64,000 nt of DNA, taken from positions 642,189-706,188 of the forward strand of contig OZ253667.1 in NCBI GenBank assembly GCA_965263235.1, in the 5' to 3' direction. The DNA comes from Pseudomonadales bacterium. Its GTDB lineage: Bacteria; Pseudomonadota; Gammaproteobacteria; Pseudomonadales; UBA7434. This document shows positions 26,377-49,133 of this stretch, piece after piece (position 1 is the stretch's first letter; each line of letters starts with the position of its first letter). The notes under the pieces are model-generated. The model saw nothing but the letters and a program-made list of their open reading frames with translations, was not told the origin of the DNA and did no database searches. Position numbers and translations under genes: made by a program.

Positions 26377-26476
26377 GCCCTTTTTCATAACCTCGGCGGA
26401 CGACCGCTGTTGTATTGATTCGCATCTGCTTTAGTTGCGGAGCTACGTGATTCGGGACGGCCCGGGACAAAGTCAG

Positions 26477-36376: not shown

Positions 36377-36479
36377 GATTATAAATCGCGTAGGTTTATT
36401 TCCCCTTTTTATTTGAATGGTTGTTTCGATTTTTTTGGTCGATATTGGTGTGCTAAAAAGTAGCCTGGAGTTATTTGAA

Positions 36480-37205
36480 ATGAATACAAAGCAAGTTTTA
36501 TTTGGAATTACGCTTGGTAGTTTGGTCATGCAATCTCATGCAGCGATCGTAGGCTTTACAAGTTTTGAAGAGCCTTCAACTGGAGGCAAGTACACCGATG
36601 CAGATACATCAAGCCATGCGTTAAGCAACGTAGCTGGGCTAGCTGATGTGGTTTATGCCTCAACGGGTTCAGAGCTTGGATTTTCCGCGTTCTTTACTAG
36701 TACTGGGGGATCTGGCCTGTCAGACGACGACTTTATTGGTGTTACTAGCTTTACGGGCGCAGTCGGAAGTTTTAGCGATGGAAGCCAGGGCTATCAGCTT
36801 TCAGATACTGATGGAATAGTAACAGTCACAACTGACAGTGTGGCGTTACTAGATGGTTTGAGCAGCGTCTCTATTGACTTCTTTCTGGACACAACGGGGT
36901 ATGAGTCAACTGACAGGACTCGTATATGGGCAGAAGTTGATGGCGGCGTAGAAATTGACCTGTTAAATACTGCTGGCAGCGATATAAATGATTTGGGCAT
37001 AGAAGGCAGTTGGCTCACAGTGACGGCGGATTTAACTGGGTACACCAGTGCTCAATTACATTTTGAAGCCGAGTTTAACGCCGCATCCGAAACAATTTAT
37101 TTTGACAATGTAGTTTTCGATTCTGTTGCTGCCGTGCCTGTGCCAGCCGCAGCCTGGCTATTTATTTCTGCGTTGAGTGGCATGGTTGTGGTTCGACGTA
37201 AATAG
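36480..37205 (+). CDS. secreted protein with VPxPA/PEP-CTERM-like sorting tag
   Basis: The ORF is open from 36417, but the ATG at 36480 gives a clean signal peptide, MNTKQVLFGITLGSLVMQSHA/A. The C-terminus is VPVPAAAWLFISALSGMVVVRRK. The body resembles the C-terminal beta-rich domain of the upstream 1425-aa protein (..IYFDNVVF vs ..IAFDNVEV). Confidence 0.65.
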   Translation: MNTKQVLFGITLGSLVMQSHAAIVGFTSFEEPSTGGKYTDADTSSHALSNVAGLADVVYASTGSELGFSAFFTSTGGSGLSDDDFIGVTSFTGAVGSFSDGSQGYQLSDTDGIVTVTTDSVALLDGLSSVSIDFFLDTTGYESTDRTRIWAEVDGGVEIDLLNTAGSDINDLGIEGSWLTVTADLTGYTSAQLHFEAEFNAASETIYFDNVVFDSVAAVPVPAAAWLFISALSGMVVVRRK

Positions 37206-37479
37206 GGTTGCCCATTTGCTAGCGATAACAAATGTCTCGATTAATTGTTGTGAGCGAACAGAGGTTTGATTAATAAGTGATCAGCAGTCATAAAACCTTC
37301 TTAAGGCTGTTATTTACACAGTTAATTTCTTGGGATAGCATCTGAGTCCCAAGTTTTAGAGCGGCGGGCAAGCAAAAAATAAATGCGAGTCTGCCGCTAA
37401 TAAGCGCTCTAATGTGACAAGTATGTTTTTAGTTAGCAGCAACTTCCGTTGATGTTGTTGCTGGCCCTGGAGTCTGGAA

Positions 37480-38295
37480 ATGATAATTAGAAGTTTCACA
37501 CGTGCTTTTGCGATAAGCGCGGTTGCATTGTCTGGTTTTGCCAGCTTTGACGCATTATCTTCAACTGTTAACCCATCTGGTACAGGTCTATTTGTAGAGC
37601 TGGCAGATGAGGCCGGGCAGATTTTTGATGTTTGGGCTACGCCAGATTGGAATTCTCAAAGCCCATCGGATCAGGTGCCAGTCACTGGAATGTTGCAGGG
37701 TATAGGCACCGAAGGCGATATAGATTTTAGTTGGGATGTTAAGTACAACCCTGACCCATTTTTGCTGGTGACTTTTACGCTCAAAAACCTTTCGGCAAAT
37801 ACAAAAACATTTAGCTTGAATAGTAGTGTTCCCGTTTCTCCAGCAATACCCGGCGCCGTTTACTATGGAGGTTCATTGATCACTACGGTAAGTGATACGA
37901 GTAATGACGGTTTCGCACAGGTGGCAGGAGTTTCCGGTGGTGCAATTTTTGATGGAATGATTGATAGCGCATCCACTTTATTGCTAGGCGCAATATCGAC
38001 CAGTTGTGCGTCCGGTGGTGGTGGATGTACAAATACAACCTCAGACAGTGAAGGCTTAGCGGTAGCACCAGTAAATGTTGGAGATCCGCTTCCTTTACCA
38101 TCGTTACTCGACAATTCCTTGAGCGCTCTGACAGGTCCTTCAACTGATATTGGAATTGATCTGGACTTTACCCTTACCAGTGGAGATACGGCTACCTTTG
38201 TTGGCTATTTTGAAGTGCAAGCAGTTCCAGTACCAGCCGCAGCCTGGCTGTTTATGTCTTCGGTTATTGGTTTGATGGCCCTTCGGCGAAAATAA
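37480..38295 (+). CDS. secreted protein with VPxPA/PEP-CTERM-like sorting tag
   Basis: 271 aa with a signal peptide (...FASFDALS/ST). The C-terminus is VPVPAAAWLFMSSVIGLMALRRK. Confidence 0.65.
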   Translation: MIIRSFTRAFAISAVALSGFASFDALSSTVNPSGTGLFVELADEAGQIFDVWATPDWNSQSPSDQVPVTGMLQGIGTEGDIDFSWDVKYNPDPFLLVTFTLKNLSANTKTFSLNSSVPVSPAIPGAVYYGGSLITTVSDTSNDGFAQVAGVSGGAIFDGMIDSASTLLLGAISTSCASGGGGCTNTTSDSEGLAVAPVNVGDPLPLPSLLDNSLSALTGPSTDIGIDLDFTLTSGDTATFVGYFEVQAVPVPAAAWLFMSSVIGLMALRRK

Positions 38296-38316
38296 TTTTT
38301 ATATTTGTAAGCTCGA

Positions 38317-38344
38317 AAGCCCCGCAAAAAAGCGGGGCTTTTTG
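38317..38344 (+). terminator. rho-independent terminator
   Basis: The hairpin aaagccccgc-aaaaaa-gcggggcttt is followed by a T-run. Confidence 0.75.
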
Positions 38345-38577
38345 TATTAAAGGCAGTAACATTCAGGATATTTGAAGCGTTTGCAATATAACCTATTGAT
38401 TTTAAAAATATAAAAATAATTAGAACAATCGTTGAGCCCCCAGGCGAGCGCCTTCAAATTGATCTTCTAGTCATGTTTTTGGCAATTTAATTCGAGATTG
38501 GCCAGCCAAATACAGGCTTGCCATATATATTAGTATATGCTAAATTAGATATTACTTAATTTACGAGGCTCATATTT

Positions 38578-38898
38578 ATGGTTGATCTTGCGGCATTGTC
38601 AGAGCTGGAGGAAAACGCGAAGGCAGCGTCTGACTTGATGAAAGAGCTTTCTAACGAGTATCGCTTGATGATTCTTTGCTCGTTGGCTGGCGGCGAGTTG
38701 TCGGTGGGGCAGATCAACGATTTGATGCCGCTCAGCCAGTCTGCGGTGTCTCAGCATCTTGCAAGGTTGCGAGCATCCCAACTGGTCGCAACCAGACGAG
38801 AGTCGCAGTCGATTTTTTATCGCCTTAACGGCGACGCAGCTATTCGGGTGATCGAAGTCTTGCAGTCTATTTACTGCCCAGATCTAAAGACCGGTTGA
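38578..38898 (+). CDS. ArsR/SmtB-family regulator, BigR/SqrR-like (persulfide-sensing type)
   Basis: 106 aa with the wHTH LSVGQINDLMPLSQSAVSQHLARLR. Two Cys residues (C34 in ILCSL, C100 in IYCPD) sit where BigR/SqrR carry their redox pair. It is the first gene of a sulfur-stress operon. Confidence 0.8.
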   Translation: MVDLAALSELEENAKAASDLMKELSNEYRLMILCSLAGGELSVGQINDLMPLSQSAVSQHLARLRASQLVATRRESQSIFYRLNGDAAIRVIEVLQSIYCPDLKTG

Positions 38899-38957
38899 TT
38901 TCCAAGGCGGCTCCCAGCTGAGCTGCTCATACAAGCACAAGCCTACAGGAGGAAATA

Positions 38958-39476
38958 ATGAGCGTATCCATTAGTGCTGAAAACTTCAAAGAGCTTTATA
39001 GCCAGGGAGGTATACAGGTGCTCGACGTCAGGACTCGTGTAGAGACGAGTACACAGTCAATTTCCGGTGCTCTCCACGTGCCGCTAGATGAGCTTAACTC
39101 TTCCGAGGCTCTGGAGCAGTTGGCAAAGATTCAAGGAGAGCTCTATCTGTTATGCAAAAGCGGTAAGCGTGCGGGTATGGCGAGGAATCAATTGTCGGAG
39201 AAGATTGGCGCCAAACTGACTGTCATTGATGGCGGCATTGATGCCCTGGCTAACTGCGGGTTAAAGACGCGCTCGAGTAACTCTGTCTGGAGCCTTGAGC
39301 GGCAAGTTAGATTTACCGCGGGGATGATAGTTGTCATCGGCTGTTTAGTGGCACTTTTTGCCGCGCCAGGTGCGGTGTGGATACCACTTTTGGTCGGCTG
39401 TGGTTTGATGCTAGCCGCGGCAACAGATAGTTGCGCCATGGGCTTGTTGTTAGCACGAATGCCCTGGAACCGTTAA
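38958..39476 (+). CDS. rhodanese domain protein with C-terminal DUF2892 membrane domain (YgaP-like)
   Basis: 172 aa with the rhodanese active-site loop CKSGKRAG. The C-terminus has two TM helices ending ...CAMGLLLARMPWN. Confidence 0.8.
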   Translation: MSVSISAENFKELYSQGGIQVLDVRTRVETSTQSISGALHVPLDELNSSEALEQLAKIQGELYLLCKSGKRAGMARNQLSEKIGAKLTVIDGGIDALANCGLKTRSSNSVWSLERQVRFTAGMIVVIGCLVALFAAPGAVWIPLLVGCGLMLAAATDSCAMGLLLARMPWNR

Positions 39477-39492
39477 ATAGTAAGCTAACGAA

Positions 39493-40335
39493 ATGCTTAT
39501 ATTCGCGGTTGGTATCTGTATTGGGCTGGTATTGGGGCTTACGGGCGCTGGAGGATCGGCGCTGGCAGTGCCGCTTCTGGTTATTCTTGCTGGGCTCCCG
39601 GTTCAGGACGCAGTAGGTATAGCGCTATTGGCAGTTGCGGTAAGTGCGGCTTTGGGTGCGATCCAGTCGCTAAGGGTCGGTGCCGTATTAAGAAATCCCG
39701 CTATTGTGCTTGCTATTTCGGGCGCACTTTTTGCGCCGATAGGTAATGCCGTCGGGTCGAATATTAGTCCTGAGTTGTTAGCTACGCTGTTTGCCGCCCT
39801 CGCTCTGGTGATTGCGATTCGGTTGTTTGTGCAGGCGCTAAAATCGGCGGATGAAGACATCGTTGTTCGAGCGGGTATAAGTGATCGCTATAACGCTGTC
39901 GAACCGATTTGCCGGATGAACTCAAGTGGCTCTGGTTTTGAATGGAGGCCCCGCTGCGTTGGATCGTTAGCGGCAGGCGGTACCGCGGTGGGCTTTCTGG
40001 CTGGGTTGTTTGGTGTTGGTGGGGGTTTTCTTATTGTTCCTTTGTTGTTGTATCTCACTAACACTTCGATGCATCAAATCGTCGGCACCTCTCTTGTTGT
40101 TATCACGCTGACAAGTGCGACAGCTTTTTTGGCTTATCTTTTGCGGACGTCTATTGAAGAGCGCGATGCGTTGATTCTTGCTTCGGTGGGCGCTCTCGTC
40201 GGTATGAGCGTAAGTATAACCGTCGCGGGGAAAGTCCCCGGAATTCTGCTTCAAAAACTATTCGCGCTCACGCTCGTAGCTTTCGCCCTGTTGCTGCTAG
40301 CAAAATCAGCGACAGCTGTGTTGGGCAATCTCTAA
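39493..40335 (+). CDS. TauE/SafE family sulfite/anion exporter
   Basis: 280 aa, polytopic, with an internally duplicated 4-TM pattern (GLTGAGGSALAVPLL ... GLFGVGGGFLIVPLL). Confidence 0.85.
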   Translation: MLIFAVGICIGLVLGLTGAGGSALAVPLLVILAGLPVQDAVGIALLAVAVSAALGAIQSLRVGAVLRNPAIVLAISGALFAPIGNAVGSNISPELLATLFAALALVIAIRLFVQALKSADEDIVVRAGISDRYNAVEPICRMNSSGSGFEWRPRCVGSLAAGGTAVGFLAGLFGVGGGFLIVPLLLYLTNTSMHQIVGTSLVVITLTSATAFLAYLLRTSIEERDALILASVGALVGMSVSITVAGKVPGILLQKLFALTLVAFALLLLAKSATAVLGNL

Positions 40336-40355
40336 ATTAACTGGTGGACAAGGCA

Positions 40356-41054
40356 ATGATTTTTAGGCAACTGTATGATCTAGAATCCTCCACATATACT
40401 TATCTTTGTGGAGATGAGCAAACCAAAAAGGCGATTCTTATCGACCCGGTGATCGCCCAGACAGAAGTTTATCTGCAATTGTTAGAGCAACTTGGTCTTA
40501 GTCTGGATAAAGCGTTGGACACGCATACCCATGCGGATCATGTGACGGCGCTTGGGGAGTTGCGAGCAAGAACGGGTTGCACAACGATGATGGGAGAACA
40601 GTCAGAGGCTGATTGCGTCTCACTTAAGTTTTCTCATGATGATGAAATTTCAGCGGGAAATATAAGATTAAAGGCAATCTACACACCAGGGCACACGGAT
40701 GATTCCTATAGCTTTTTTACACAAGCCGAAGGGCAGGGTTATCTTTTTACAGGAGATACCTTGCTAATTCGTGGTACCGGCAGAACCGATTTTCAAAACG
40801 GAAGCGCTGCAGACCAGTACGACAGTATTTTCTCCAGGCTTTTGCAATACCCAGACGATACCCTGGTTTATCCAGGGCATGATTATAAAGGATGGACAGT
40901 TTCCACGATAGGTGAGGAGAGAGCACATAATCCGAGAATCAATGTGGAAGGATTGGCCGAGTATATAAGGTTAATGGATTCGCTAAATTTGCCCGATCCA
41001 AAATTGATGGATATCGCAGTTCCAGCCAATAAGGCCTGCGGTGCTAACGGTTAA
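40356..41054 (+). CDS. MBL-fold persulfide dioxygenase-like hydrolase (ETHE1/Blh type)
   Basis: It has the N-terminus MIFRQLYDLESSTYTYL, the metal motif THTHADH and GHTDDS. The ORF is open from a GTG at 40344, but the ATG at 40356 matches the usual N-terminus. Confidence 0.8.
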   Translation: MIFRQLYDLESSTYTYLCGDEQTKKAILIDPVIAQTEVYLQLLEQLGLSLDKALDTHTHADHVTALGELRARTGCTTMMGEQSEADCVSLKFSHDDEISAGNIRLKAIYTPGHTDDSYSFFTQAEGQGYLFTGDTLLIRGTGRTDFQNGSAADQYDSIFSRLLQYPDDTLVYPGHDYKGWTVSTIGEERAHNPRINVEGLAEYIRLMDSLNLPDPKLMDIAVPANKACGANG

Positions 41055-41089
41055 CATCAGGGCTTTTCTAGCTACCGAGGTATTTACAA

Positions 41090-41503
41090 GTGAAACCTGA
41101 AGGGCATTTTGTTGATTTAATTTTCCGCGTTTCCCTTAGCCTTATTTTTGTAATTGGGGGGCTGGGACATTTCGTTAGGCAGGAGTGGATGTTGCAGCGA
41201 TTAACGGATTCGCCGTGGTCAGATTGGGTGGAGGCGATTGGGAGTCCAGCCTTTTACCTCGAATTGTCCGGTGCGGTCATGATGGTCGCCGGGCTGTCTT
41301 TGCTATCAGGGTTTTATACCAAGCTAAGTGCGTTAGCACTTTTTGTCACGTTGGTGCCGATAACCTTTGTGATACATATTGCTCCCGATCACACCGGGCC
41401 ACTTTTTAAAAACGTGGCGATTTTGGGGGCGCTTCTGCACTTTGTTGTTTATGGTGCTTCCAACTACAGCGTTGATAGTGTTATCGCGAGTAAAAAGATA
41501 TAG
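41090..41503 (+). CDS. DoxX family membrane protein
   Basis: 137 aa with 4 TM helices, including LIFVIGGLGHF and the pattern LLHFVVYG. Confidence 0.7.
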   Translation: MKPEGHFVDLIFRVSLSLIFVIGGLGHFVRQEWMLQRLTDSPWSDWVEAIGSPAFYLELSGAVMMVAGLSLLSGFYTKLSALALFVTLVPITFVIHIAPDHTGPLFKNVAILGALLHFVVYGASNYSVDSVIASKKI

Positions 41504-41527
41504 CAGATAATTTGCTGAGGTAATGAT

Positions 41528-41758
41528 ATGAGTGCCAGGGTCCATGCGACAGTTAGTGAAGAGACGCCACTAACTTTTATGCAGCTATTTTGGAGCGTTC
41601 TTGCGGCAGCATTTGGTGTCCAGACCAATAGTAATCGCCGACGTGATTTTGAGCGTGGAAAGCCACTTCACTTTATTGCAATAGGGATTATTTTCACCAC
41701 GCTATTTGTGGTGTTGATGATTGTTATTGTGAGAGTCGTGCTTGGTTTGTATGTATGA
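41528..41758 (+). CDS. DUF2970 small membrane protein
   Basis: 76 aa. The pattern FWSVLAAAFGVQTNSNRRRDFERGKPLHFIAIGIIFT is typical of DUF2970. Confidence 0.6.
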   Translation: MSARVHATVSEETPLTFMQLFWSVLAAAFGVQTNSNRRRDFERGKPLHFIAIGIIFTTLFVVLMIVIVRVVLGLYV

Positions 41759-41789
41759 AGGCTTACAGGTGGCGATGCTGGATTAAAGT

Positions 41790-41958
41790 GGGAGTGTAGA
41801 AACAACCTCCTGTGTTTCACCCTTCGGGCGCCTTACGCGCGCGCTAAATCGCTCCAGGCATTTGGTGAACCCGCTTCTTGTATTCACCTGTCGCAAACCT
41901 CGGCCAATAAAAAACCCCAACCGGAAAACGGTTGAGGTTTGTTTATTGGTGGACGGCG
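41790..41958. repeat. left copy of a ~170-nt direct repeat (structured spacer, hairpin terminator and 12-nt ssrA 3'-end fragment)
   Basis: It aligns by eye with 47466-47637, with about 5 substitutions and 4 small indels. It ends tggtggacggcg, the complement of the tmRNA 3' terminus, then diverges. Confidence 0.85.
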
Positions 41959-42209
41959 ACAGTCTGATTTGAGTGGTAACTAATTGATAATAAAGGCTAT
42001 TCAATATCTGTCTTGTCATTGATACCCCCAAAAGTACCCCCAGCGGAAAGCATTTTAAGCTTGGTTAGAGCGATAATTAGGCAATTTTGCGAAGTTATTA
42101 AAAAACGCAATTTTTGAGAGGGTGAACAGCGTACTTGCAGAAATTGCTGTTTTTTCGCAAGTACAGTGCTAAGCTTGCGAGAAATAGCCAGTTTTCGAAA
42201 GTACATGCT

Positions 42210-43301
42210 ATGTATGACCCCACAAAACCTTATTACGATCTGCCGAAGCTGCCGCCAGCGCAATCGCTGGAATCACTGGAGCTGTACAAGTCTTTGCTGC
42301 CTGCATCGGAGGCATTGGCAAAGCTTTCAGCTACGGCAGAGCACCTACCTAACCAGGCTGCGCTATACCAGAGTGTGATTCTGCTTGAAGCAAAAGCTTC
42401 GTCAGAGATTGAGCAGGTCATTACGACAGATGAAAAACTGTTTAGCAGTGACCCAGCCCAGCACGCTACGGACCCTATGACTAAAGAAGTACTGAGTTAT
42501 GGAGAGGCCATTCACTGTGGAATGCAAAGTGATAGGCCCATTTGTACGCCGCTTATCGAAGAGATTTGTACAATTATCAAAGGCATGGAGATGCAGGTTA
42601 GAAAGGTGCCAGGCACATCGCTCAAGCGTCCCTCAACTGGTGAAATCGTATATACACCACCCGATGGCGAGAAACTGTTGAGAGATTTACTTGATAATTT
42701 GTTTGGTTGGATGAACGACAATGATGGCGTTCATCCCATCATTAAGGCCGCTATCGCACATTACCAGTTTGAGTCGATACATCCCTTTACCGATGGAAAT
42801 GGCCGGAGTGGTCGAATTATGGTGGTGCTTTATTTGGTGGAGCAAAAATTGCTGACTTCTCCAGTCTTGTTTTTATCGGGTGAAATTCTTGCTGATAAAA
42901 AAAGCTACTATTCGCTGCTTCAGTCTACTAGAGAGGATAACGATTTTATCCCTTATCTAATTTGGTTTGCGAATGTTGTACATCGAGCGTCGTTACAATC
43001 AACGATCCGAGCCTATAACGTGCGGCTTGCGATGCAGGAAGTTAAGCATGAACTAAGAGCTCTAGATTCAAAAATGTACTCACAAGATTTAGTTAATACA
43101 ATGTTTAGAGGGCCTATTATATTTGCCAACCAACTGGTCGAGCGTGACATAGTTGGGAGCATATCGACGGCACATACTTATTTAAGAAAGCTTGAGTCAG
43201 CTGGATTGTTAGTGAAATCGGACAGGAAATACCATCGCAAAACAGGGTACATCAATACTCGGTTGTTGAACGCATTAAGCGGGGAAATTGATCTGGGTTA
43301 A
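42210..43301 (+). CDS. Fic family protein (AMPylase-type active site, Fic_N-type N-terminus)
   Basis: It has the active-site motif HPFTDGNGRSGR and the N-terminus MYDPTKPYYDLPKLPP typical of Fic_N proteins. An inhibitory-helix-like ASSEIEQV is present. The ORF is open from a TTG at 42135, but the ATG at 42210 fits the family N-terminus. Confidence 0.88.
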   Translation: MYDPTKPYYDLPKLPPAQSLESLELYKSLLPASEALAKLSATAEHLPNQAALYQSVILLEAKASSEIEQVITTDEKLFSSDPAQHATDPMTKEVLSYGEAIHCGMQSDRPICTPLIEEICTIIKGMEMQVRKVPGTSLKRPSTGEIVYTPPDGEKLLRDLLDNLFGWMNDNDGVHPIIKAAIAHYQFESIHPFTDGNGRSGRIMVVLYLVEQKLLTSPVLFLSGEILADKKSYYSLLQSTREDNDFIPYLIWFANVVHRASLQSTIRAYNVRLAMQEVKHELRALDSKMYSQDLVNTMFRGPIIFANQLVERDIVGSISTAHTYLRKLESAGLLVKSDRKYHRKTGYINTRLLNALSGEIDLG

Positions 43302-43315
43302 AGGGGGTAATAACT

Positions 43316-43546
43316 ATGGTAAGCAAACTAAAATCTAAAACCAACAATCCTGTCGCTAAGCAGGCCAGGCGGTTTAATAAATCAGTGGTTTTTAAAGACC
43401 GTAAACAATCCCATAAACGGGGTTATATTAAACACAAAGGGCGTCAATACGAGCGCCCTTGTTTTTTGGTGGGACGGCGGGAGTTGATATTGATTTATAG
43501 GAACCTGATAAGAAGATATACCCCTAAAACCTATTTTCTAGCCTAA
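43316..43546 (+). CDS. small basic protein, candidate alternative ribosome-rescue factor ArfA-like (likely made from a non-stop transcript)
   Basis: A strong SD (aagggggtaataactATG) lies 14 nt after the fic stop. The basic sequence NNPVAKQARRFNKSVVFKDRKQSHKRGYIKHKGR loosely parallels the ArfA core (..[22 protein letters not shown]). An intrinsic terminator lies inside the ORF at codons ~41-51. The 3' tail overlaps the convergent nuclease gene. Confidence 0.5.
   Translation: MVSKLKSKTNNPVAKQARRFNKSVVFKDRKQSHKRGYIKHKGRQYERPCFLVGRRELILIYRNLIRRYTPKTYFLA
43437..43467 (+). terminator. intrinsic terminator located inside the ArfA-like ORF
   Basis: A 7-bp stem aagggcg / cgccctt with a 10-nt loop is followed by gTTTTTT. 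Confidence 0.65.
43467..43487. repeat. partial copy of the ssrA 3' end (att-like core)
   Basis: tggtgggacggcgggagttga compares with tggtggagacggcgggagttga at the true ssrA 3' end (47624-47645). The match extends into the preceding T-run. Confidence 0.75.
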
Positions 43547-44536
43547 ATCGGCGACATAAATCTGCTTGAGAGGGAGTATCGATCTGTATTTCGGGAGCAT
43601 GCTTGGGTAGTGCTCAAGAATCAAATCAACCAGTTCTTCGCCGTCAATCAATCGCAGTTTAGGTTTGTTGCGTTCCAGCAATCTGGCTGGTCGTGAGTAG
43701 GAGCCTAGATTTACGAATAAGCCATACTCTCCTTCGCCCAGTGAGCCTAACAATTGGTTTACTTCGGGCTCACCATTTGATGTGAGCGATTTTTTGCACT
43801 GCACTTTGATGATGGGCGGCTCGAATCCGAGTTCATCACTGTGGGCGATGACATCGACACCGCCATCACCGCTTTTGGACGATACTCTGGCTTTGTAGCC
43901 CATACATTCCAACAGGTGCGCGACGAAGTATTCAAACTCGTAACCATCGAGTTTGGCGTGCAGTTGCTTAATAATAAAATCCTCTGTTGTTTGCTGAGCT
44001 TGAAAAGAAATGGTTTCAGTGATGCTCTCATCGTCGGCAGTTTCATCATCACTAACATCTCTAGTTGTGCTGTTTGCGAGCCCAATTTTGGTTAAAAACT
44101 CTTGCGAGTGAGTTTTTACCGCAAAGAGCGTTAATGCAGAGCCAATTTCGTTTAAAGCTGACTGGCTAAATTCATTGCGTTCAAAGTGGCCAAGCCATTC
44201 TACCTGTCTGTGATTGGTATAGTCGTGTGGGTCGTCTGCAACGTAAATGTAATCACTAGTTACTCTCCCGATATTAACCACACGATCCTTGGACGGATAT
44301 ATAACAATATCCCCCTGTTTTATCTCGTTAACAAATCTAAATAACACGCCAGCGTTTTGCGGGATCGCACCTTTTTTTGATTCGGGCAGTGCTTTACTGA
44401 GAGCTTCTTTTAAGCTTTCTCTAGACACTGAGTATTGTTTTAAATCGCCAAGCTGTTCCCAACCTATACCAACATAATTGTTGTCTATGGGAGCCGATCC
44501 AGCTTTTTCTCCCATATGTATTCCCCAGACGTTCAT
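43538..44536 (-). CDS. Mrr-catalytic-domain restriction endonuclease with unassigned N-terminal domain
   Basis: 332 aa. The C-terminal Mrr_cat pattern is FEYFVAHLLECMGYKARVSSKSGDGGVDVIAH...IIKVQCKK. The N-terminal ~150 aa (WGIHMGEKAG...VGIGWEQLGDL...IKQGDIVIY) is not the Mrr winged-helix N-domain. A strong SD (aaggaagg) lies 13 nt after the upstream gene's stop. Confidence 0.85.
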   Translation of the reverse strand: MNVWGIHMGEKAGSAPIDNNYVGIGWEQLGDLKQYSVSRESLKEALSKALPESKKGAIPQNAGVLFRFVNEIKQGDIVIYPSKDRVVNIGRVTSDYIYVADDPHDYTNHRQVEWLGHFERNEFSQSALNEIGSALTLFAVKTHSQEFLTKIGLANSTTRDVSDDETADDESITETISFQAQQTTEDFIIKQLHAKLDGYEFEYFVAHLLECMGYKARVSSKSGDGGVDVIAHSDELGFEPPIIKVQCKKSLTSNGEPEVNQLLGSLGEGEYGLFVNLGSYSRPARLLERNKPKLRLIDGEELVDLILEHYPSMLPKYRSILPLKQIYVADLG

Positions 44537-44549
44537 TTTTTCCTTCCTT

Positions 44550-47312
44550 TTAACTGGTTGATGAAGTTTTCTTTCTTGCTTTTCGCTTTGGCTTTTCTTG
44601 TTTAGGCAAAAGGCTCGTGTATTGCTGATAGAGATTAAATAAAAAAGCTACGCGCTCAGCTTCTGATTTAAAACTGCGTTTTCCGTAGGCGGCGTCTACC
44701 GCTTTGTCGAGTGCTTGATGTGCTTTAAATAGAGCAGGAGGCATAGTTAGCGGGTCGTATAGGTCAGCCAAAGTCGAATCAGGGAATTGGTCGCGAGCAT
44801 CTAAAACTGCTTGGGCTTTTTCTTCAATTGCGGCTTTCTGTTTTACAGTTGGGGCTGGCGGCCAGGGGAAATTATTGTAAACAATATCTTTGGAATATCT
44901 GTAACGACTCTCTAGTCTTCCACATACGGCTCTTACCCATGAATTGTGCATCGTTGAAAGGAGTAAGCCCAAATGGTATGCGCTTGCGCTTGGGACGATT
45001 TTTACTAAATTGCTACAAAACGTTTCAGGTTGCTCGAAACCGATGGGGATAAATTGCCTTCTTTCGGATGAAACTTCGGGAACTATTAGATATGTATCAG
45101 AAGGTATGTTTTCTACATGAAATCTTGTGGGTGTGGCCGCCAATTTCTGTGTTGGATGGCTCTTGCTTGCTAACCTAACCGCTTTGACGGCTTCTACACG
45201 CTTTAAAGCCTCTGGCATTTTTTTTAGTTCATTTGGCGGGCATTCGCCCAACCACAAACACCAACGCTCATAACCATTAATAAACTCGTGAGCACCCAGC
45301 CAGCGTTTAAACCATCTTTCGGACAGAGGTTCTGTTTTTATAAACGCTTCTTTTTCCTCGGTGGTGAACAAGTAATTGCCACCATCAATTGGTTTATTGC
45401 CAATGCCTATCTCGGGGACGTTGCAAATAGGTTTTGCCCGTCTCGTTAAGACTACGTTAGCAGCGTCTACTAGATAGGGGTTGATGTTTTTTATTTCAAG
45501 TTCTAGTGGATCGCCTTTAATGTCTTCATATTCAAAAAGCCTTTTTTTGGTGGGGTATCGTTTGCTAAATCCCACAATAACACAATGGACGGCAGCGTTG
45601 TTTGCGGCTTCATTACTCCAGCAAAAGGTTCTATGAGCAAAGTCTATGGCAATTTCTTTTGCTAATAGATACCCCCACAGCACACCAACTTGCTCCCCTA
45701 AGCATATTGAGTTAGTAGAAACGAATGCACACGCAACGTTTTTATTCTCAGCTAGATATTCAGATGCTTTAATATACCAAGCTGCCACTAAATCAAGTAA
45801 GCCAGAGTTTTTTATACCTTTCAATACTAATGCCGTATCTTTTCTCTGTTCAGAATCAAGATACTTTGCGCCCACAAATGGTGGATTGCCAAAAATAAAG
45901 TTTGTTCTAGGTTTGGGTAACACATCTTCCCAGTCCATAGTCAGCGCATTGCCGCATTCAACTCTAGCCGACGATTTCAGTGGTATCCGCGCAAAATACA
46001 AACCAAACTCTTCAGAAACTAACAGATTCATTTGGTGATCCATCAACCACAATGCAACCTGTGCAATTTGAGCAGGAAATTCTTCAATCTCTATGCCATA
46101 AAACTGGTCAACGTCCAACTGCAACATAGAATGAATATCAAAAGTCTGCTGACCACTTTCACTCGATGCTCTTAAAATCTCTAGCTCAAGTGTTCGTAAT
46201 TCTCTGTAAGCAATTACCAGGAAGTTTCCGCAGCCACAAGCTGGGTCAAAAAAAGTAAGTGTTCGGAGCTTTTTATGAAATTCAAAAAGCTTGTTCTTGT
46301 TATTCTTGACTTTTTCGAACTCAGCTCGTAGATCATCCATGAAAAGCGGATTTATTAGCTTGAGGATGTTTTTTTCGCTGGTGTAGTGTGCTCCAAGGTT
46401 TCGCCGTTTCTTCTTATCCATGATTGATTGAAATAGCGAGCCGAATATTGCGGGCGATATAAGGCTCCAATCCAGCGCGCAGCAATCGAGCAATGCCTGG
46501 CGCATGGCTGTGTCGAAAGCTGCAATCGGCAAAGACTCTTCGAAGAGTTTGCCATTGATATATTCAAAGGCTGCGAGTTGTTCATCACGATTACTAAGGC
46601 GCTTTTCGTGTGGTGTATTCAGAACCTGGAAAATGGTGCTCAAGTGCATGGCTAAATCTGAACCATCTTCGGCTGTTCGGTCGATAATGTAGCTTTCGAA
46701 CTGTTGCTGCTCAAAGATCCCTGTGTCTTCTGCGAACATACAAAACAGCAGTCGCACAAGATAGACTTCTAAAACATGCCCTTCGTATCCAGACTCCTTC
46801 ATTTGGTCGTGCAGCTTACCCATAGCTTCCGCTGCCTCAATGTTGACGGGATCTTGTTCTTTGATTTTGTGAGTTTGGTAACCCGCTATAAAGCCGAATA
46901 GATTTATATTGTTGTGTAGTTCTTCCAGCGAAAACTCGGTCTGTGTGTCTTCGTCCAGATCGTAGAGGCGAAACTTCGCAAAGTCGGAAACAATCACATA
47001 GCGCGGTAAATCACGCTCCTTGAGTCCCTCGAAGTAGGAAAGGGCTTGTTCGCGGGCACTGTCTAAGTCTTTTCCTCGCGATTTATGTTCTATCAGTAAC
47101 TTACCCTTCCAAAGCAAGTCGATATAGCCATCTTTGCCATCAATCTTTTTAACGTGGGTTTCAAATGTTGCGATTCGGCGGCGAGTGACGCCGAAGATAT
47201 TGAAAAAACCGTCCCAAAAGCTTTTGGCTTCGGCATGTTCTGACGATTCCTCCGCCCAATCCTTTGAGAATTGAAATGCGCGTGATCTGATCTCGTTCCA
47301 GCTCAGAGGCAT
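44550..47312 (-). CDS. MmeI-family type IIL (IIG) restriction-modification enzyme (fused nuclease, m6A methyltransferase and TRD)
   Basis: 920 aa, collinear with my recollection of MmeI (about 919 aa). The N-terminus is LSWNEIRSRAFQFSKDW and the PD-ExK motif is IDLLWKGKLLIEHKSRGKDL. SAM motif I is FFDPACGCGNFLV and motif IV is GNPPFVG. It also has the conserved C-terminal GRLESRYRYS and LYDPLTMPPAL. Confidence 0.9.
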   Translation of the reverse strand: MPLSWNEIRSRAFQFSKDWAEESSEHAEAKSFWDGFFNIFGVTRRRIATFETHVKKIDGKDGYIDLLWKGKLLIEHKSRGKDLDSAREQALSYFEGLKERDLPRYVIVSDFAKFRLYDLDEDTQTEFSLEELHNNINLFGFIAGYQTHKIKEQDPVNIEAAEAMGKLHDQMKESGYEGHVLEVYLVRLLFCMFAEDTGIFEQQQFESYIIDRTAEDGSDLAMHLSTIFQVLNTPHEKRLSNRDEQLAAFEYINGKLFEESLPIAAFDTAMRQALLDCCALDWSLISPAIFGSLFQSIMDKKKRRNLGAHYTSEKNILKLINPLFMDDLRAEFEKVKNNKNKLFEFHKKLRTLTFFDPACGCGNFLVIAYRELRTLELEILRASSESGQQTFDIHSMLQLDVDQFYGIEIEEFPAQIAQVALWLMDHQMNLLVSEEFGLYFARIPLKSSARVECGNALTMDWEDVLPKPRTNFIFGNPPFVGAKYLDSEQRKDTALVLKGIKNSGLLDLVAAWYIKASEYLAENKNVACAFVSTNSICLGEQVGVLWGYLLAKEIAIDFAHRTFCWSNEAANNAAVHCVIVGFSKRYPTKKRLFEYEDIKGDPLELEIKNINPYLVDAANVVLTRRAKPICNVPEIGIGNKPIDGGNYLFTTEEKEAFIKTEPLSERWFKRWLGAHEFINGYERWCLWLGECPPNELKKMPEALKRVEAVKAVRLASKSHPTQKLAATPTRFHVENIPSDTYLIVPEVSSERRQFIPIGFEQPETFCSNLVKIVPSASAYHLGLLLSTMHNSWVRAVCGRLESRYRYSKDIVYNNFPWPPAPTVKQKAAIEEKAQAVLDARDQFPDSTLADLYDPLTMPPALFKAHQALDKAVDAAYGKRSFKSEAERVAFLFNLYQQYTSLLPKQEKPKRKARKKTSSTS

Positions 47313-47460
47313 AGGCTTTTGCGTGTCCTTAAATATAAAATTGTTTGAATTTTGACTCCAGTTTGCATTGTATTATTAAGCCCCGAAAGACCCTAGTACA
47401 TATTTTTAGGGAAGGTGTTTAGGGTCGAGGTAAAACTTGTCACACAAGACAAACAAAGGA

Positions 47461-47471
47461 ACGGCGGGAGT
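47461..47471. repeat. 11-nt partial copy of the ssrA 3' core
   Basis: acggcgggagt is identical to 47632-47642 inside ssrA. It lies exactly at the left edge of the right ~170-nt repeat. Confidence 0.5.
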
Positions 47472-47637
47472 GTATGAAACACCTCCTGTGTTTCACCCTT
47501 CGGGCGCCTTACGGGCGCGCTAAATCGCTCCAGGCGATTTGGTGAGCCCGCTTCTTGTGTTCATCTGTCGCAAACCTCGGCCAATAAAAAACCCCAACCG
47601 GAAAACGGTTGAGGTTTGTTTTTTGGTGGAGACGGCG
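47466..47637. repeat. right copy of the ~170-nt direct repeat (runs into the authentic ssrA 3' end)
   Basis: See 41790-41958. It contains the ssrA terminator ccccaaccg-gaaaa-cggttgagg (47592-47614). Confidence 0.85.
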
Positions 47638-47980
47638 GGAGTTGAACCCGCGTCCGTCAGTCCTCTGCCATCGGCTCTACATGCTTAGATCCGCCTATTA
47701 ATTTTATCTCTCTCGGCCCAGCGGTCGGGGTGATGAGAGACGAGCCCGGTAAAAGGTTTCGCGCATTGGCCCCGAACGTGTCGCTGCGCTAGCTTGTTCT
47801 GTATGACAGTCACTTCTTGTTTACAAGCATCCAATGGTGACTGCTAGCAGGGTTTAAGCCGCTAGAGCGTAGTTTTCGTCGTTGGCAACTATAAAGTTAC
47901 AGCGATTGTTTTACGAGAGTCACTACCCTCTCGGCATGCACCTTTGGTTTCGTAACCGGCGTCGAATCCAGATCGTCCCC
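47624..47980 (-). ncRNA. ssrA: tmRNA (transfer-messenger RNA)
   Basis: On the minus strand the 5' end reads GGGGACGATCTGGATTCGACGCCGG and the 3' end reads GGACGCGGGTTCAACTCCCGCCGTCTCCACCA. The internal tag reading frame encodes ANDENYALAA followed by a stop. Confidence 0.96.
47854..47886 (-). other. tmRNA tag-peptide reading frame (ANDENYALAA plus stop)
   Basis: The minus-strand sequence is GCC AAC GAC GAA AAC TAC GCT CTA GCG GCT TAA. Confidence 0.9.
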
Positions 47981-48071: not shown

Positions 48072-49133
48072 TTATAGTTGCAGCCATTCGGGGACAGGTA
48101 AGCCTTTGTTTTCCAGGAAAACTGGATTGAATAGCTTACTTTGGTAGCGGGTGCCGTAATCGCAGAGAATAGTGACGATGGTGTGACCGGGCCCCAGATC
48201 TTTGGCGAGTGCGATGGCGCCAGCGACGTTTACACCGGATGAACTGCCAAGGCACAGCCCCTCATGTTGTAGAAGGTCGAAAATAATCGTTAATGCTTCA
48301 TGGTCGCTAATCTGGTAGGCAAAATCAATTTCCGCATCGGCGAGGTTGGGGGTTATGTGGCTGATGCCAATGCCCTCTGTGATTGATGAGCCTTCGGATC
48401 GGAGTTCGCCATCTTTATAAAAATGGAATAACGATGATCCCATTGGGTCGGCAATGCCAATTTTGATGTCTTTATTATGTTCTTTGAGTCGCTGCGAGAC
48501 GCCACCTAACGTTCCGCCTGTGCCAACCGCGCAACAAAACCCGTCTATCTTGCCTTCCGTTTGGGCGATGATTTCTTCGGCTGTAGTTTGATAGTGAATG
48601 TCGCGATTGGCGGTGTTGCCAAATTGATTGGCCCAAATGGCGTTACCTGAGCTTGCGTTAAGCTCCTCGGCAATGCGTTTGGCGGTATGTGTGTAATGAT
48701 TAGGGTCGTCGTAAGATGTTGCCCCAACAAGGCGCAAATCTGCACCAATCATTTCGAGCATGTCGATTTTTTCTTTGCTTTGTGTCATTGGCATGACAAT
48801 AACGGATTTATAGCCGCGTGCATTCGCTAACAAAGTTAGCCCAATACCTGTGTTGCCTGCAGTGCCTTCGACGATGGTGCCACCTGGTGCTAGATCGCCG
48901 CTTTTCTCTGCCGCATTTACAATGCCGAGTGCAGTTCGGTCTTTCACAGAGTTACCAGGATTTAAGAATTCCCCTTTGCCGTATATGTTGCAGCCCGTAA
49001 GTTCAGAGGCCGCTTTGAGTTTTACAAGGGGCGTGTTTCCGATGATGTTTGAAAGTGGGTCAACAGTGGTCAAAATGTATTTCCTTGGTGCTAAATGAAC
49101 GCCCGCTGGCTTGCTTATTAATCTGGTGGCCAA
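48072..49133 (-). CDS. PLP-dependent cysteine synthase / cystathionine beta-synthase family protein
   Basis: 353 aa with the PLP-lysine motif NPGNSVKDR, GNTGIG and GTGGTLGG. It has an N-terminal extension relative to classical CysK. Confidence 0.85.
   Translation of the reverse strand: MATRLISKPAGVHLAPRKYILTTVDPLSNIIGNTPLVKLKAASELTGCNIYGKGEFLNPGNSVKDRTALGIVNAAEKSGDLAPGGTIVEGTAGNTGIGLTLLANARGYKSVIVMPMTQSKEKIDMLEMIGADLRLVGATSYDDPNHYTHTAKRIAEELNASSGNAIWANQFGNTANRDIHYQTTAEEIIAQTEGKIDGFCCAVGTGGTLGGVSQRLKEHNKDIKIGIADPMGSSLFHFYKDGELRSEGSSITEGIGISHITPNLADAEIDFAYQISDHEALTIIFDLLQHEGLCLGSSSGVNVAGAIALAKDLGPGHTIVTILCDYGTRYQSKLFNPVFLENKGLPVPEWLQL

What the first reader, a model, noticed from the sequence alone, without database searches (positions are those of the whole stretch)
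41790..47645. Composite, integrase-less island at the tmRNA 3' end, delimited by ~170-nt direct repeats and four copies of the ssrA 3' core
Two direct repeats are visible by eye at 41790-41958 and 47466-47637, differing by roughly 5 substitutions and 4 small indels. Each comprises a hairpin-rich spacer, the hairpin terminator ccccaaccg-gaaaa-cggttgagg with a T-run, and the complement of the ssrA 3' terminus. Only the right copy continues into a complete tmRNA.

Two more partial ssrA 3' cores lie inside the interval: tggtgggacggcgggagttga at 43467-43487 and acggcgggagt at 47461-47471. The cores partition the interval into three parts:
- a 1.5-kb fic/arfA-like module;
- a 4.0-kb restriction module;
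- a 0.17-kb duplicate of the native ssrA terminator region.

This is the scar pattern expected from serial site-specific insertions at ssrA. However, the interval contains no integrase, excisionase, transposase or phage gene, and one repeat copy appears to have been imported together with flanking DNA. A short tandem motif taccccca-N4-taccccca (42023-42042) sits just inside the left junction and could be an arm-type site remnant. The mobilisation mechanism is unclear: it could use an integrase acting in trans, or homologous replacement via the 170-nt flanks.
Basis: partly seen in the sequence, partly recalled or inferred. Interest (0 to 1): 0.75.

Follow-up and report, generated by a model that had tools for sequence, protein, structure and literature searches.

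The report
Integrase-less defence island array at ssrA
A 5.7-kb stack of two decayed mobile islands carrying three anti-phage systems sits just downstream of the tmRNA gene and is absent from a 98.5%-identical relative; this is a well-documented kind of island, not a new one.

Summary
An intact tmRNA gene (47624-47980, minus strand) is followed by two copies of a ~170-nt unit made of the ssrA terminator and a hairpin-rich spacer (41790-41958 and 47466-47637). They bracket 5.5 kb. Extra ssrA 3'-end cores lie at 47461-47471, 43467-43487 and 41947-41967.

A same-species metagenomic contig (98.5% identical) has the predicted empty site: cysK, ssrA, one unit, DUF2970.

The cargo is three defence systems: SoFic, an Mrr-like PDC-S02 nuclease and an MmeI-type IIG restriction enzyme. 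A small DUF7230 gene is also present. There is no integrase.

The same GGGGGTA-N4-TGGGGGTA pair sits at the same distance from the displaced core in a metagenomic ssrA island that does encode a P4-type integrase.

Best reading: serial integration by P4-family integrases, loss of the integrase genes, then exchange between strains by homologous recombination. A tract with roughly five-fold higher divergence abuts the island, which supports the last step.

How the unit came to be duplicated is unresolved. The "arfA-like" label fails every homology test, but the gene does carry an in-ORF terminator.

Verdict: new member of a known kind, with moderate interest.

The parts
47624..47980 (-). Intact ssrA (tmRNA) gene, tag peptide ANDENYALAA. 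Its last 22 nt (47624-47645) are the reference att core TCAACTCCCGCCGTCTCCACCA.
   Evidence: ARAGORN. Rfam RF00023, 204.6 bits, full length.
47466..47623 (-). Right copy of the T-U unit: the ssrA intrinsic terminator (47589-47617) plus a hairpin-rich spacer ending in ACTCCC.
   Evidence: Direct repeat, terminator scan, folding. Homologous to the single unit of L145, L083 and L081.
47458..47471 (-). Core 1: ACTCCCGCCGT(-)TCC. It is 11 nt exact, or 14/15 with one gap, and lacks the final CCACCA. It forms a novel joint J1 (unit end ACTCCC | GCCGT...) that is absent from the empty site.
44550..47312 (-). MmeI-family type IIG restriction-modification enzyme (920 aa).
   Evidence: Pfam MmeI_N, _hel, _Mtase, _TRD and _C domains. 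PADLOC REase_MTase_IIG, 1234 bits. Nearest homologs are only 75% identical and taxonomically scattered.
43538..44536 (-). Mrr-type nuclease (332 aa), matching the candidate defence protein PDC-S02.
   Evidence: Pfam Mrr_cat E = 6e-25. PADLOC PDC-S02 E = 5e-136.
43467..43487 (-). Core 2: TCAACTCCCGCCGTC-CCACCA (21/22), the boundary between the restriction module and the Fic module.
   Evidence: The same 1-nt-deleted variant lies after the unit in L081.
43437..43468 (+). Intrinsic terminator hairpin plus T-run. It lies inside the DUF7230 ORF and abuts core 2. Read on the minus strand, it may have terminated ssrA when this island lay next to ssrA.
   Evidence: Terminator scan, fold.
43316..43546 (+). 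DUF7230 small basic protein ORF (76 aa; conserved part is aa 7-47). The ORF reads through the terminator and through core 2.
   Evidence: Pfam PF23876 E = 5e-12. Homologs.
42210..43301 (+). SoFic-type Fic adenylyltransferase (363 aa), a known single-gene defence system.
   Evidence: Pfam Fic_N, Fic and SoFic-like_C. NCBIfam ProtAdlyltaseSoFic, E = 8e-101 but 337.6 bits, below the 550-bit cutoff. PADLOC SoFic E = 9e-89.
42023..42041 (-). Tandem GGGGGTA-N4-TGGGGGTA, a candidate arm-type integrase binding site pair. In the ssrA reading direction it lies 56-74 nt upstream of the start of core 3 (41967).
41947..41967 (-). Core 3: TCAGACTGTCGCCGT--CCACCA, the attR-type joint of the Fic island, followed directly by the left unit.
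41790..41946 (-). Left copy of the T-U unit (terminator at 41912-41940). It is contiguous with the native DUF2970 flank exactly as in the empty site.
41189..41789 (.). Left flank (3' part of DoxX, DUF2970) with raised divergence from the empty-site relative: 19 differences in 600 nt, against 16 in 2600 nt further left.
   Evidence: Poisson p = 1.5e-8.

Best explanation
This is a decayed tandem array of two small genomic islands that entered at the 3' end of the tmRNA gene by tyrosine-integrase site-specific recombination.

The first island (41959-43466) carries SoFic and DUF7230. The second (43488-47460) carries an Mrr-like nuclease and an MmeI-type IIG enzyme. Each insertion left an ssrA-like core at its far end. 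The integrase genes and the ssrA-proximal arms were later lost, so the array is now a non-autonomous, CIME-like defence islet.

At least the Fic island derives from a P4-family element of the type seen intact in metagenomic locus L137, because it keeps that family's tandem arm-type sites at the right spacing.

The ~170-nt direct repeats are two copies of a lineage-wide module: the ssrA terminator, hairpins, and a secondary ssrA core. In related bacteria this module serves as a second landing site. The most likely origin of the duplication runs as follows. The islands sat behind this module in a donor. They were moved as one block together with the module, by excision between the outermost cores. 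The block then re-inserted at ssrA in a strain that had its own copy.

Among present-day strains the whole block is gained or lost by homologous recombination in the flanking genes.

Shown: the anatomy, the empty site, the non-random cores, the shared arm motif, and the diverged flank. Inferred: the order of events, the loss of the integrase, and the block-transfer step.
For: - An empty site with one unit exists in a 98.5%-identical relative. Two collinear blocks overlap by exactly the 172-nt unit.
- ssrA cores lie at all three internal boundaries, with 0 expected by chance.
- The novel joint ACTCCC|GCCGT after the right unit continues the ssrA core, whereas the native unit ends ACTCCC|ACTTTA.
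- Among 239 fetched loci, the tandem GGGGGTA-N4-TGGGGGTA pair occurs only in L137 and L102. In L137 it occurs twice: once beside a P4-type integrase and once 57-79 nt upstream of the displaced core. In L102 it lies upstream of a degenerate core. The window and L137 arms are collinear from the motif to CCACCA.
- Related marine gammaproteobacteria show every intermediate: ssrA followed by the unit and a full second core; islands starting at the second core (L092, L108, L140); islands starting at ssrA itself (L130, L137); units sandwiched between islands; two units flanking two islands on one contig (L135+L116); and complete core-bounded islands without an integrase (L130, L113, L116).
- The cargo is defence genes with GC 43.3%, against 47.9% for the window.
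- The flank 41189-41789 is about five times more diverged from the empty-site strain than DNA further left (p = 1.5e-8).
- Precedent for tandem ssrA islands, integrase-less members and accretion: PMC3146451. Precedent for stacked remnants with partial tRNA or tmRNA repeats: bioRxiv 10.1101/2020.12.28.424599.
Against: - No integrase is present in the 64-kb window, so action in trans or loss is inferred, not seen.
- Cores 1 and 3 are damaged, so the array may no longer be able to excise.
- A profile of the conserved 70-nt island ends from the GCCGCC-core clade hits the two window junctions only at E = 17-18, which is not significant, and the second hit is out of register. The restriction island's family is therefore unassigned.
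- Private changes in the two unit copies (R,L,R,R,L,L,L,L along the unit) do not fit 'left copy native, right copy imported' cleanly.
- Only one close relative was available, so gain in this lineage cannot be told apart from loss in L145.
- L145 is a low-coverage (about 4x) metagenomic contig.
Confidence: 0.6

Rival explanations
1. Islands landed in a pre-existing tandem duplication. The ancestor already had ssrA, unit, full core, unit, as several related genomes do. Both islands integrated one after the other into the middle core. Both unit copies are then native and nothing was imported with the islands.
For: Cargo-free tandem arrays of core, terminator and unit exist in L086 (4 cores), L126, L143, L117, L142 and L131. 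Islands do start at secondary cores in L092, L108 and L140. Both window copies are about equally distant from the L145 unit (6 and 8 differences) and each has private changes.
Against: All three relatives nearest to the window (L145, L081, L083) have a single unit. In L145 the secondary core is reduced to ACTCCC. A tandem ancestor would therefore need a separate duplication and then a loss, or a loss in L145.
Confidence: 0.2
2. RecA-mediated Campbell insertion. A circular DNA carrying one unit plus the two islands recombined homologously with the resident unit. No integrase acted in this genome, and the 170-nt direct repeats are simply the duplicated homology.
For: A single crossover automatically gives direct repeats the length of the shared homology. 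The private changes cluster: the right copy's 3 lie in the proximal 85 nt, and 4 of the left copy's 5 lie in the distal 80 nt. That is the chimeric pattern expected if the incoming unit was L145-like. There is independent evidence for homologous exchange at this locus.
Against: The clustering is weak (about p = 0.07, my count). The pattern fits only if the resident unit was the diverged one. The model still needs a site-specific origin for the circle, because cores mark every internal boundary. 170 nt at about 95% identity is a poor RecA substrate compared with the kilobases of flanking homology.
Confidence: 0.12
3. The unit is itself a miniature non-autonomous element. It would consist of a terminator-bearing P' arm and a pseudo-core-bearing P arm, and would be copied to ssrA in trans. 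The right copy is then a third, most recent insertion, made after the two islands.
For: In L081 the unit is followed by a near-complete core and then a different terminator, as if the unit had displaced the original one. Units are multiplied in tandem in several genomes. Their hairpins are conserved with lineage-specific complementary stems.
Against: A 170-nt circle is far below the size at which lambda- or P4-type integrases are known to work (my own knowledge). The units carry no GGGGGTA-type arm sites. RNAalifold found no net covariation support.
Confidence: 0.08
4. There is no mobile-element history. The repeats and cores are chance similarity or an assembly artefact.
For: None beyond the low coverage of the empty-site contig.
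Against: Shuffle controls give 0 expected matches. The two copies differ at 15 alignment columns and have different flanks. The empty-site contig has its own private SNPs and is not the chimera that a collapsed assembly would give.
Confidence: 0.01

Closest known systems
Tandem ssrA-specific genomic islands of Dehalococcoides (McMurdie et al. 2011, PMC3146451)
   Same: Several islands are stacked downstream of the single tmRNA gene. [quoted passage not shown] Extra sequence conservation surrounds the repeats. Some members lack the integration module and were interpreted as cis-mobilizable elements moved by accretion.
   Different: Those islands use a serine recombinase (DsiB) and carry dehalogenase cargo. 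Here the related integrase-bearing element (L137) has a P4-type tyrosine integrase and the cargo is anti-phage defence. In addition, a 170-nt terminator-plus-hairpin module is duplicated along with the core.
Cis-mobilizable elements (CIMEs) and accretion-mobilisation of ICE-derived elements in streptococci (my own knowledge; cited in PMC3146451)
   Same: DNA flanked by attL- and attR-type sites with no recombination or transfer genes, lying in tandem at a tRNA-like integration site and presumed to depend on an integrase supplied in trans.
   Different: Mobilisation in trans has not been shown here. Two of the three internal cores are damaged, so the array may be fixed.
P4-family ssrA islands and prophages of enterobacteria such as CP4-57 (Williams 2003, 'Traffic at the tmRNA gene', my own knowledge, paper not retrievable; CP4-57 in PMC10107115)
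   Same: Integration at the ssrA 3' end, arrays of elements, damaged att sites, and elements that bring their own ssrA terminator.
   Different: Those elements keep their integrase next to ssrA. Here it is absent, and the terminator region brought along is a near-copy of the host's own 170-nt downstream module.
Tycheposon islands of Prochlorococcus (bioRxiv 10.1101/2020.12.28.424599)
   Same: Marine bacteria. Islands lie next to tRNA and tmRNA genes and are built by repeated integration that pushes older elements outward, leaving degenerate remnants and scattered partial tRNA repeats.
   Different: A different integrase family and a different host phylum. No equivalent of the conserved terminator-and-hairpin module is described there.

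Membership tests
tDNA/tmRNA-integrated genomic island (Islander-type definition) | Target gene regenerated and intact | tested here: met
   Full-length tmRNA call, 204.6 bits.
tDNA/tmRNA-integrated genomic island (Islander-type definition) | Displaced 3' fragment of the target gene as a direct repeat at the far end | tested here: met
   Cores at 43467-43487 (21/22), 47461-47471 and 41947-41967.
tDNA/tmRNA-integrated genomic island (Islander-type definition) | Integrase gene inside the island | tested here: not met
   The four genes are Fic, DUF7230, Mrr_cat and MmeI. tblastn with a P4-type integrase finds nothing in the window.
tDNA/tmRNA-integrated genomic island (Islander-type definition) | Sporadic presence, with a precise empty site in a close relative | tested here: met
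   L145, 98.5% identical, has ssrA, one unit and DUF2970.
Cis-mobilizable element (CIME) / accretion array | Flanked by att-type repeats but lacking recombination and transfer genes | tested here: met
Cis-mobilizable element (CIME) / accretion array | Shares att and arm sequences with an autonomous, integrase-bearing element | tested here: met
   For the Fic island only: the tandem GGGGGTA pair and the spacing to CCACCA are shared with L137, which encodes a P4-type integrase. For the restriction island the result is inconclusive.
Cis-mobilizable element (CIME) / accretion array | Excision or transfer when an integrase is supplied in trans | not testable with these tools
   Needs PCR or long reads for circles, or a genetic test. 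The rest of the 2.98-Mb source genome could not be retrieved.
ArfA (alternative ribosome-rescue factor A) for the DUF7230 gene | Sequence homology to ArfA | tested here: not met
   Pfam at E <= 10 lists only DUF7230. PDB phmmer and profile searches give no ArfA hit. BLASTP against E. coli ArfA gives E = 20 (the ArfA sequence was verified). hhalign probability is 0.14%.
ArfA (alternative ribosome-rescue factor A) for the DUF7230 gene | mRNA truncated before the stop codon by a hairpin or terminator inside the ORF | tested here: inconclusive
   A hairpin follows the KHK motif in the window gene and in 4 of 4 close non-viral homologs. In 30 distinct viral-contig homologs, most have an ordinary stop 3-10 codons after the motif and no strong hairpin. 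Transcript ends were not measured.
REP/BIME-like dispersed intergenic repeat (for the 170-nt unit) | Many copies dispersed through the genome and unrelated to ssrA | tested here: not met
   Only two copies in 64 kb. In relatives and metagenomes the unit follows ssrA or a displaced ssrA core.
Known anti-phage defence systems (cargo) | Profile matches to SoFic, type IIG RM and PDC-S02 | tested here: met
   PADLOC: SoFic E = 9e-89, REase_MTase_IIG 1234 bits, PDC-S02 E = 5e-136.

The most novel reading that the evidence does not exclude
The small DUF7230 gene on the Fic island may be a tmRNA-sensing gene of the ArfA/BrfA type. [quoted passage not shown] The terminator abuts the ssrA att core, so it may once have served as the ssrA terminator as well. 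An ssrA-integrating island would then carry its own back-up for disturbance of tmRNA, and DUF7230 would be a new family of ribosome-rescue or ribosome-binding peptides that is widespread in phages.
Probability: 0.15. Interest if true: 0.75.

Novelty: new member of a known kind. Interest (0 to 1): 0.4.

Why it matters
Taken alone, this is one more example of the tmRNA gene acting as a hotspot where mobile islands pile up and decay, here delivering three anti-phage systems to a marine gammaproteobacterium.

Three things give it some extra value:
- It is a clean, fully resolved case, with occupied and empty alleles at 98.5% identity. It shows how an integrase-less defence islet persists and moves between strains by homologous recombination after its site-specific machinery is gone.
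- It links an orphan islet to a specific integrase family through a shared arm-type site, which gives a testable partner.
- It exposes two features that appear undescribed in the searches I could run. One is a clade-wide 'terminator, hairpins, second ssrA core' module that acts as a secondary landing site and is often multiplied. The other is a subgroup of DUF7230 genes with an in-ORF terminator.

Tried and rejected
- **Exact-protein look-ups of the window's CysK and DUF2970.** Nothing found. P0001, the 100% match, also had no retrievable DNA, so the rest of the source genome could not be searched for an integrase.
- **The single genome-contig scan, with CysK.** It gave only relatives at 75% identity or less, with no ssrA nearby. 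In effect wasted.
- **First metagenome and viral scans with a 22-nt piece of the unit.** Nothing found.
- **Viral scan with the 21-nt ssrA end.** It found jumbo-phage tmRNA genes only and no attP. One search was a script error.
- **A fuzzy-regex core search.** Timed out and was replaced by blastn-short.
- **A profile of the conserved 70-nt island ends from the metagenomic clade.** It did not significantly match the window junctions (E = 17-18). I do not claim that family for the window's islands.
- **Contexts of the nearest homologs.** The nearest MmeI homologs are at most 75% identical, and I did not fetch their genomic contexts. The nearest SoFic homologs are also at most 75% identical; in the two contexts I fetched they sit as solitary genes elsewhere, away from ssrA and without a DUF7230 partner.
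- **ArfA homology of DUF7230.** Rejected.
- **RNAalifold on nine units.** It recovered only the terminator and a few pairs, with an unfavourable covariation term. The 'conserved structure' claim for the unit therefore rests on single-sequence folds and inspection.
- **Deciding which unit copy is native from private substitutions.** Inconclusive.
Full report
**1. What is in the sequence**

ARAGORN and Rfam both find one complete tmRNA gene at 47624-47980 on the minus strand, with tag ANDENYALAA. I describe the locus in the direction in which ssrA is transcribed, that is, towards lower coordinates.

- The gene is followed by a 12-bp terminator hairpin with a T-run (47617-47589) and a hairpin-rich spacer. 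Together they form a ~160-nt unit that I call T-U.
- The unit ends in ACTCCC and runs on as ACTCCCGCCGT-TCC (47471-47458). This is an 11-nt exact copy of part of the ssrA 3' end (14/15 with one gap).
- Two minus-strand genes follow: an MmeI-family type IIG restriction-modification enzyme (44550-47312) and an Mrr-type nuclease (43538-44536).
- Next comes a 21/22 copy of the ssrA end (43487-43467).
- Two plus-strand genes follow: a DUF7230 small ORF (43316-43546) and a SoFic-type Fic protein (42210-43301).
- Then a third, degenerate core (41967-41947, TCAGACTGTCGCCGT--CCACCA) and a second T-U copy (41946-41790).
- The second copy abuts the DUF2970 gene (41528-41758).

The two T-U copies are 93-96% identical in ungapped blocks. 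With the core included they share 166 of 181 alignment columns.

The 11-mer ACGGCGGGAGT occurs three times in the window, against none in 100 shuffles. The terminator and a 31-nt piece of the unit occur only in the two copies. No other significant core copy exists in the 64 kb.

**2. The empty site**

Close relatives were reached through the CysK-like gene that lies just upstream of ssrA.

- A cluster mate of the window's protein led to L145, an ENA metagenomic contig.
- blastn gives two collinear blocks: L145 1-1959 matches window 49424-47466 at 98.6%, and L145 1788-5358 matches window 41958-38389 at 98.5%.
- The 172 nt shared by the two blocks is a single T-U unit.
- L145 therefore reads cysK, ssrA, one unit, DUF2970, DoxX and onward.
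- The window carries an extra 5.68 kb: 5.5 kb of island plus a second unit.
- L145 is not a collapsed assembly of the occupied allele. It has private SNPs, and its unit is not the chimera (right-copy-like near ssrA, left-copy-like distally) that a collapse would give.
- More distant relatives (L081 with CysK 88% identical, and L082-L084 at 83%) also have a single unit after ssrA, followed by unrelated genes.
- Synteny with L081 resumes only at window ~36.1-36.5 kb. The ssrA-distal region is thus variable over about 11 kb in this group.

**3. What the 170-nt unit is**

A 20-nt piece of the terminator that is invariant in the window, L081 and L083 retrieved 60 metagenomic loci. About 50 of them belong to a clade of marine gammaproteobacteria whose ssrA ends in TTCCCGCCGCCTCCACCA.

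In that clade ssrA is followed by the same terminator, a 90-135-nt hairpin-rich spacer and, in most of the loci recovered, a second copy of the 18-nt core. Three further points follow.

- Cargo-free tandem arrays of core, terminator and spacer occur (L086 with four cores; also L126, L143, L117, L142, L131).
- Both cores are used as landing sites. Islands start directly at ssrA in L130 and L137, and at the secondary core in L092, L108 and L140. About 27 loci show an island end followed by a displaced core and the terminator unit.
- One contig (L135+L116) has two units flanking two islands, which is the window's own architecture.

Single-sequence folds give the same series of hairpins in L083 and L086 (z = -2.5 and -2.9), with different but complementary stems. 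Examples are AAATCGC/GCGATTT, AAAATTGTC/GACAATTTT and AAAACGTC/GACGTTTT. The window's two copies fold less well, and RNAalifold gave no net covariation support.

The unit is therefore an ssrA-linked, lineage-wide module with a secondary att core. It is not a dispersed repeat. In the window's own species the secondary core has decayed to ACTCCC (L145).

**4. Evidence for site-specific origin and for the integrase family**

Cores mark all three internal boundaries. The joint after the right unit reads ACTCCC|GCCGT, continuing the ssrA sequence, whereas the native unit reads ACTCCC|ACTTTA. That is a recombination joint, not an inherited sequence.

- Among 239 fetched loci (about 2 Mb), this tandem pair occurs only in L137 (twice) and L102.
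- L137 is a 4.4-kb island directly downstream of ssrA. It encodes a P4-type integrase with Arm-DNA-bind_3, Phage_int_M and Phage_integrase domains.
- One L137 pair lies beside the integrase gene. The other lies 57-79 nt upstream of the displaced distal core.
- The window's Fic-island end and the L137 end align collinearly from the pair to CCACCA.
- L132, whose integrase is 68% identical to that of L137, has GTTGGTA-N5-GTTGGTA at the same place.
- The displaced cores of L137 (CAACAGACCCCGCC-CCACCA) and L102 are 'degenerate' in the same way as the window's core 3. These may therefore be element-borne pseudo-cores, with the crossover at or near CCACCA, rather than decay products.

I conclude that the Fic island is an integrase-less derivative of an L137-type P4-family element.

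The restriction island cannot be assigned to a family. A profile of the 70-nt conserved ends that about 28 metagenomic islands share hits both window junctions only at E = 17-18, and one hit is out of register.

Complete core-bounded islands without any integrase are common in the clade: L130, L113 and L116 carry metabolic cargo. Only L137 and L132 showed a P4-type integrase.

**5. Evidence for homologous exchange**

Differences between the window and L145 are unevenly spread.

| Region (window coordinates) | Differences | Rate |
|---|---|---|
| 38589-41188 | 16 in 2600 nt | 0.6% |
| 41189-41789 (abutting the island) | 19 in 600 nt | 3.2% |
| Each unit copy | 6-8 in 172 nt | about 4% |
| Right flank | | about 1.2% throughout |

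The left-flank excess has Poisson p = 1.5e-8.

The presence/absence polymorphism is thus embedded in a recombination tract whose left end lies near 41.2 kb, inside DoxX. Either the occupied allele was imported into this lineage from a strain about 3-4% diverged, or an empty allele was imported into L145's lineage. Homologous recombination in the flanking genes is how the islet now moves. One relative is not enough to say which way it moved.

**6. How the unit came to be duplicated**

This is unresolved. I considered four routes.

- (a) The islands sat behind the unit at a full secondary core in a donor. Excision between the ssrA core and the outermost core captured the unit. Re-integration at ssrA in a strain with its own unit gives exactly the observed order.
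- (b) The islands landed in the middle core of a pre-existing tandem unit.
- (c) A circle carrying a unit inserted by a RecA-mediated single crossover.
- (d) The unit is itself a miniature element.

Polarised against L145, the right copy has three private changes, all in the ssrA-proximal 85 nt. The left copy has five, four of them in the distal 80 nt. This clustering (about p = 0.07) hints at a crossover inside the unit but is not significant.

I favour (a). The three nearest relatives all have one unit, and accretion with outer-site excision is the documented behaviour of such arrays (PMC3146451).

**7. Cargo**

PADLOC identifies SoFic (E = 9e-89), PDC-S02 (E = 5e-136) and a type IIG RM enzyme (1234 bits). 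The islet is therefore a compact defence island with GC of 43.3%, against 47.9% for the window.

The nearest MmeI and SoFic homologs are only about 75% identical and are scattered across phyla. In the two SoFic homolog contexts I fetched, the gene sits alone at non-ssrA sites.

**8. The 'arfA-like' gene**

The 76-aa ORF is a DUF7230 member. It shows no detectable homology to ArfA:

- Pfam at E <= 10 lists nothing but DUF7230.
- PDB searches give no ArfA hit.
- BLASTP gives E = 20 against a verified ArfA sequence.
- hhalign probability is 0.14%.

It does have the regulatory hallmark of ArfA and BrfA. An intrinsic terminator (43437-43460 plus T-run) lies inside the ORF, immediately after the conserved KHKG motif, and the ORF then runs on through unconserved sequence, including core 2.

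All four close non-viral homologs whose DNA I could fetch have a strong hairpin at the same place. The family is abundant in viral contigs (220 relatives). Of the 30 distinct viral loci examined, most end with an ordinary stop 3-10 codons after the motif, a few are fused to much longer ORFs, and there is no hairpin signal (median z = -0.4).

The in-ORF terminator is therefore a trait of a subgroup, not of the family. A non-stop, tmRNA-repressed gene on an ssrA island would be notable, given that excision of CP4-57 inactivates ssrA and switches E. coli to ArfA (PMC10107115) and that BrfA is regulated the same way (PMC6881298). This remains a hypothesis.

**9. Verdict**

The finding is accurate and its interpretation is essentially right. 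The object is a tandem array of integrase-less island remnants at ssrA, a kind already described in Dehalococcoides ssrA-GIs, CIMEs with accretion, enterobacterial ssrA arrays and tycheposon islands.

Its particular features are:
- the duplicated terminator module;
- the defence cargo;
- a traceable link to a P4-type integrase family;
- a clear footprint of homologous exchange.

I rate it a new member of a known kind with moderate interest. Two side observations are worth following up: the clade-wide ssrA landing-pad module and the DUF7230 in-ORF terminator.

Noticed in passing
window 43316-43546 (+); terminator 43437-43468; homologs L151 80-280, L152 994-1194, L153 478-624, L154 3001-3192: The DUF7230 ORF reads through an intrinsic terminator placed right after its conserved KHKG motif, as in ArfA and BrfA. 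Four of four close non-viral homologs have a strong hairpin at the same place. Of 30 distinct viral-contig homologs, most have ordinary stops and none shows a strong hairpin. There is no sequence homology to ArfA.
   Followed up: partly
L086 1-600; L126 3100-3500; L142 150-520; L143 11800-12100; L092 200-460; L135+L116 (one contig): In a clade of marine gammaproteobacteria, ssrA is followed by a terminator, a hairpin spacer and a second full ssrA core. This module occurs in cargo-free tandem arrays of up to four copies and is sandwiched between islands. Both cores are used as insertion sites.
   Followed up: partly
L130 59-10077; L113 478-6045; L116 3344-10566; about 28 island ends listed: Complete islands bounded by ssrA cores carry metabolic cargo (TonB receptors, PPK2, phytase, acyl-CoA ligase) and no integrase. 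They nevertheless share a highly conserved ~70-nt end (GGATGTAACAAAAGCGGATTTTTAAACCCATTAAACCTATATTAATCAATAGCTTACAGTCTAAGTACAG) and a conserved start (own terminator plus TAGCTTTCAATTG). This looks like a family of non-autonomous cassettes that depend on an integrase in trans.
   Followed up: partly
window 36400-38950, compared with L145 5358-11353 and L081 11700-20700: Homology with the 98.5% relative L145 stops at window 38389, with 10 differences in the last 200 nt. Beyond that point L145 has capsule-synthesis genes, whereas the window has two ORFs with no Pfam match (36417-37205 and 37480-38295). Synteny with L081 resumes only at ~36.1-36.5 kb. A second variable segment therefore lies to the left of the sulfur-gene cluster.
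   Followed up: partly
window 21803-21939 (+): A Guanidine-I riboswitch (Rfam 77.9 bits). About 4.5-10 kb downstream on the same strand lie a urea/guanidine-carboxylase-like gene (26435-30064) and an allophanate hydrolase gene (30076-31920), with several ORFs I did not annotate in between. This resembles the known pairing of the riboswitch with such genes, but operon membership was not checked.
   Followed up: no
window 48072-49133 (-): A CysK-like PLP enzyme sits between smpB/cspA and ssrA. Outside the immediate genus its best genome-collection matches are only 62-75% identical, and most are Alphaproteobacteria, where it is not next to ssrA. This may be an older horizontal acquisition at the same locus.
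   Followed up: no
L156, L157, L158, L159 (IMG/VR contigs of 82-352 kb): Large phage contigs encode their own tmRNA genes, whose last 21 nt are identical to the window's ssrA 3' end.
   Followed up: no
L144 3993-4370: A different, distantly related Fic-family gene lies directly downstream of ssrA in another metagenomic lineage. Fic-type cargo at ssrA may therefore recur.
   Followed up: no
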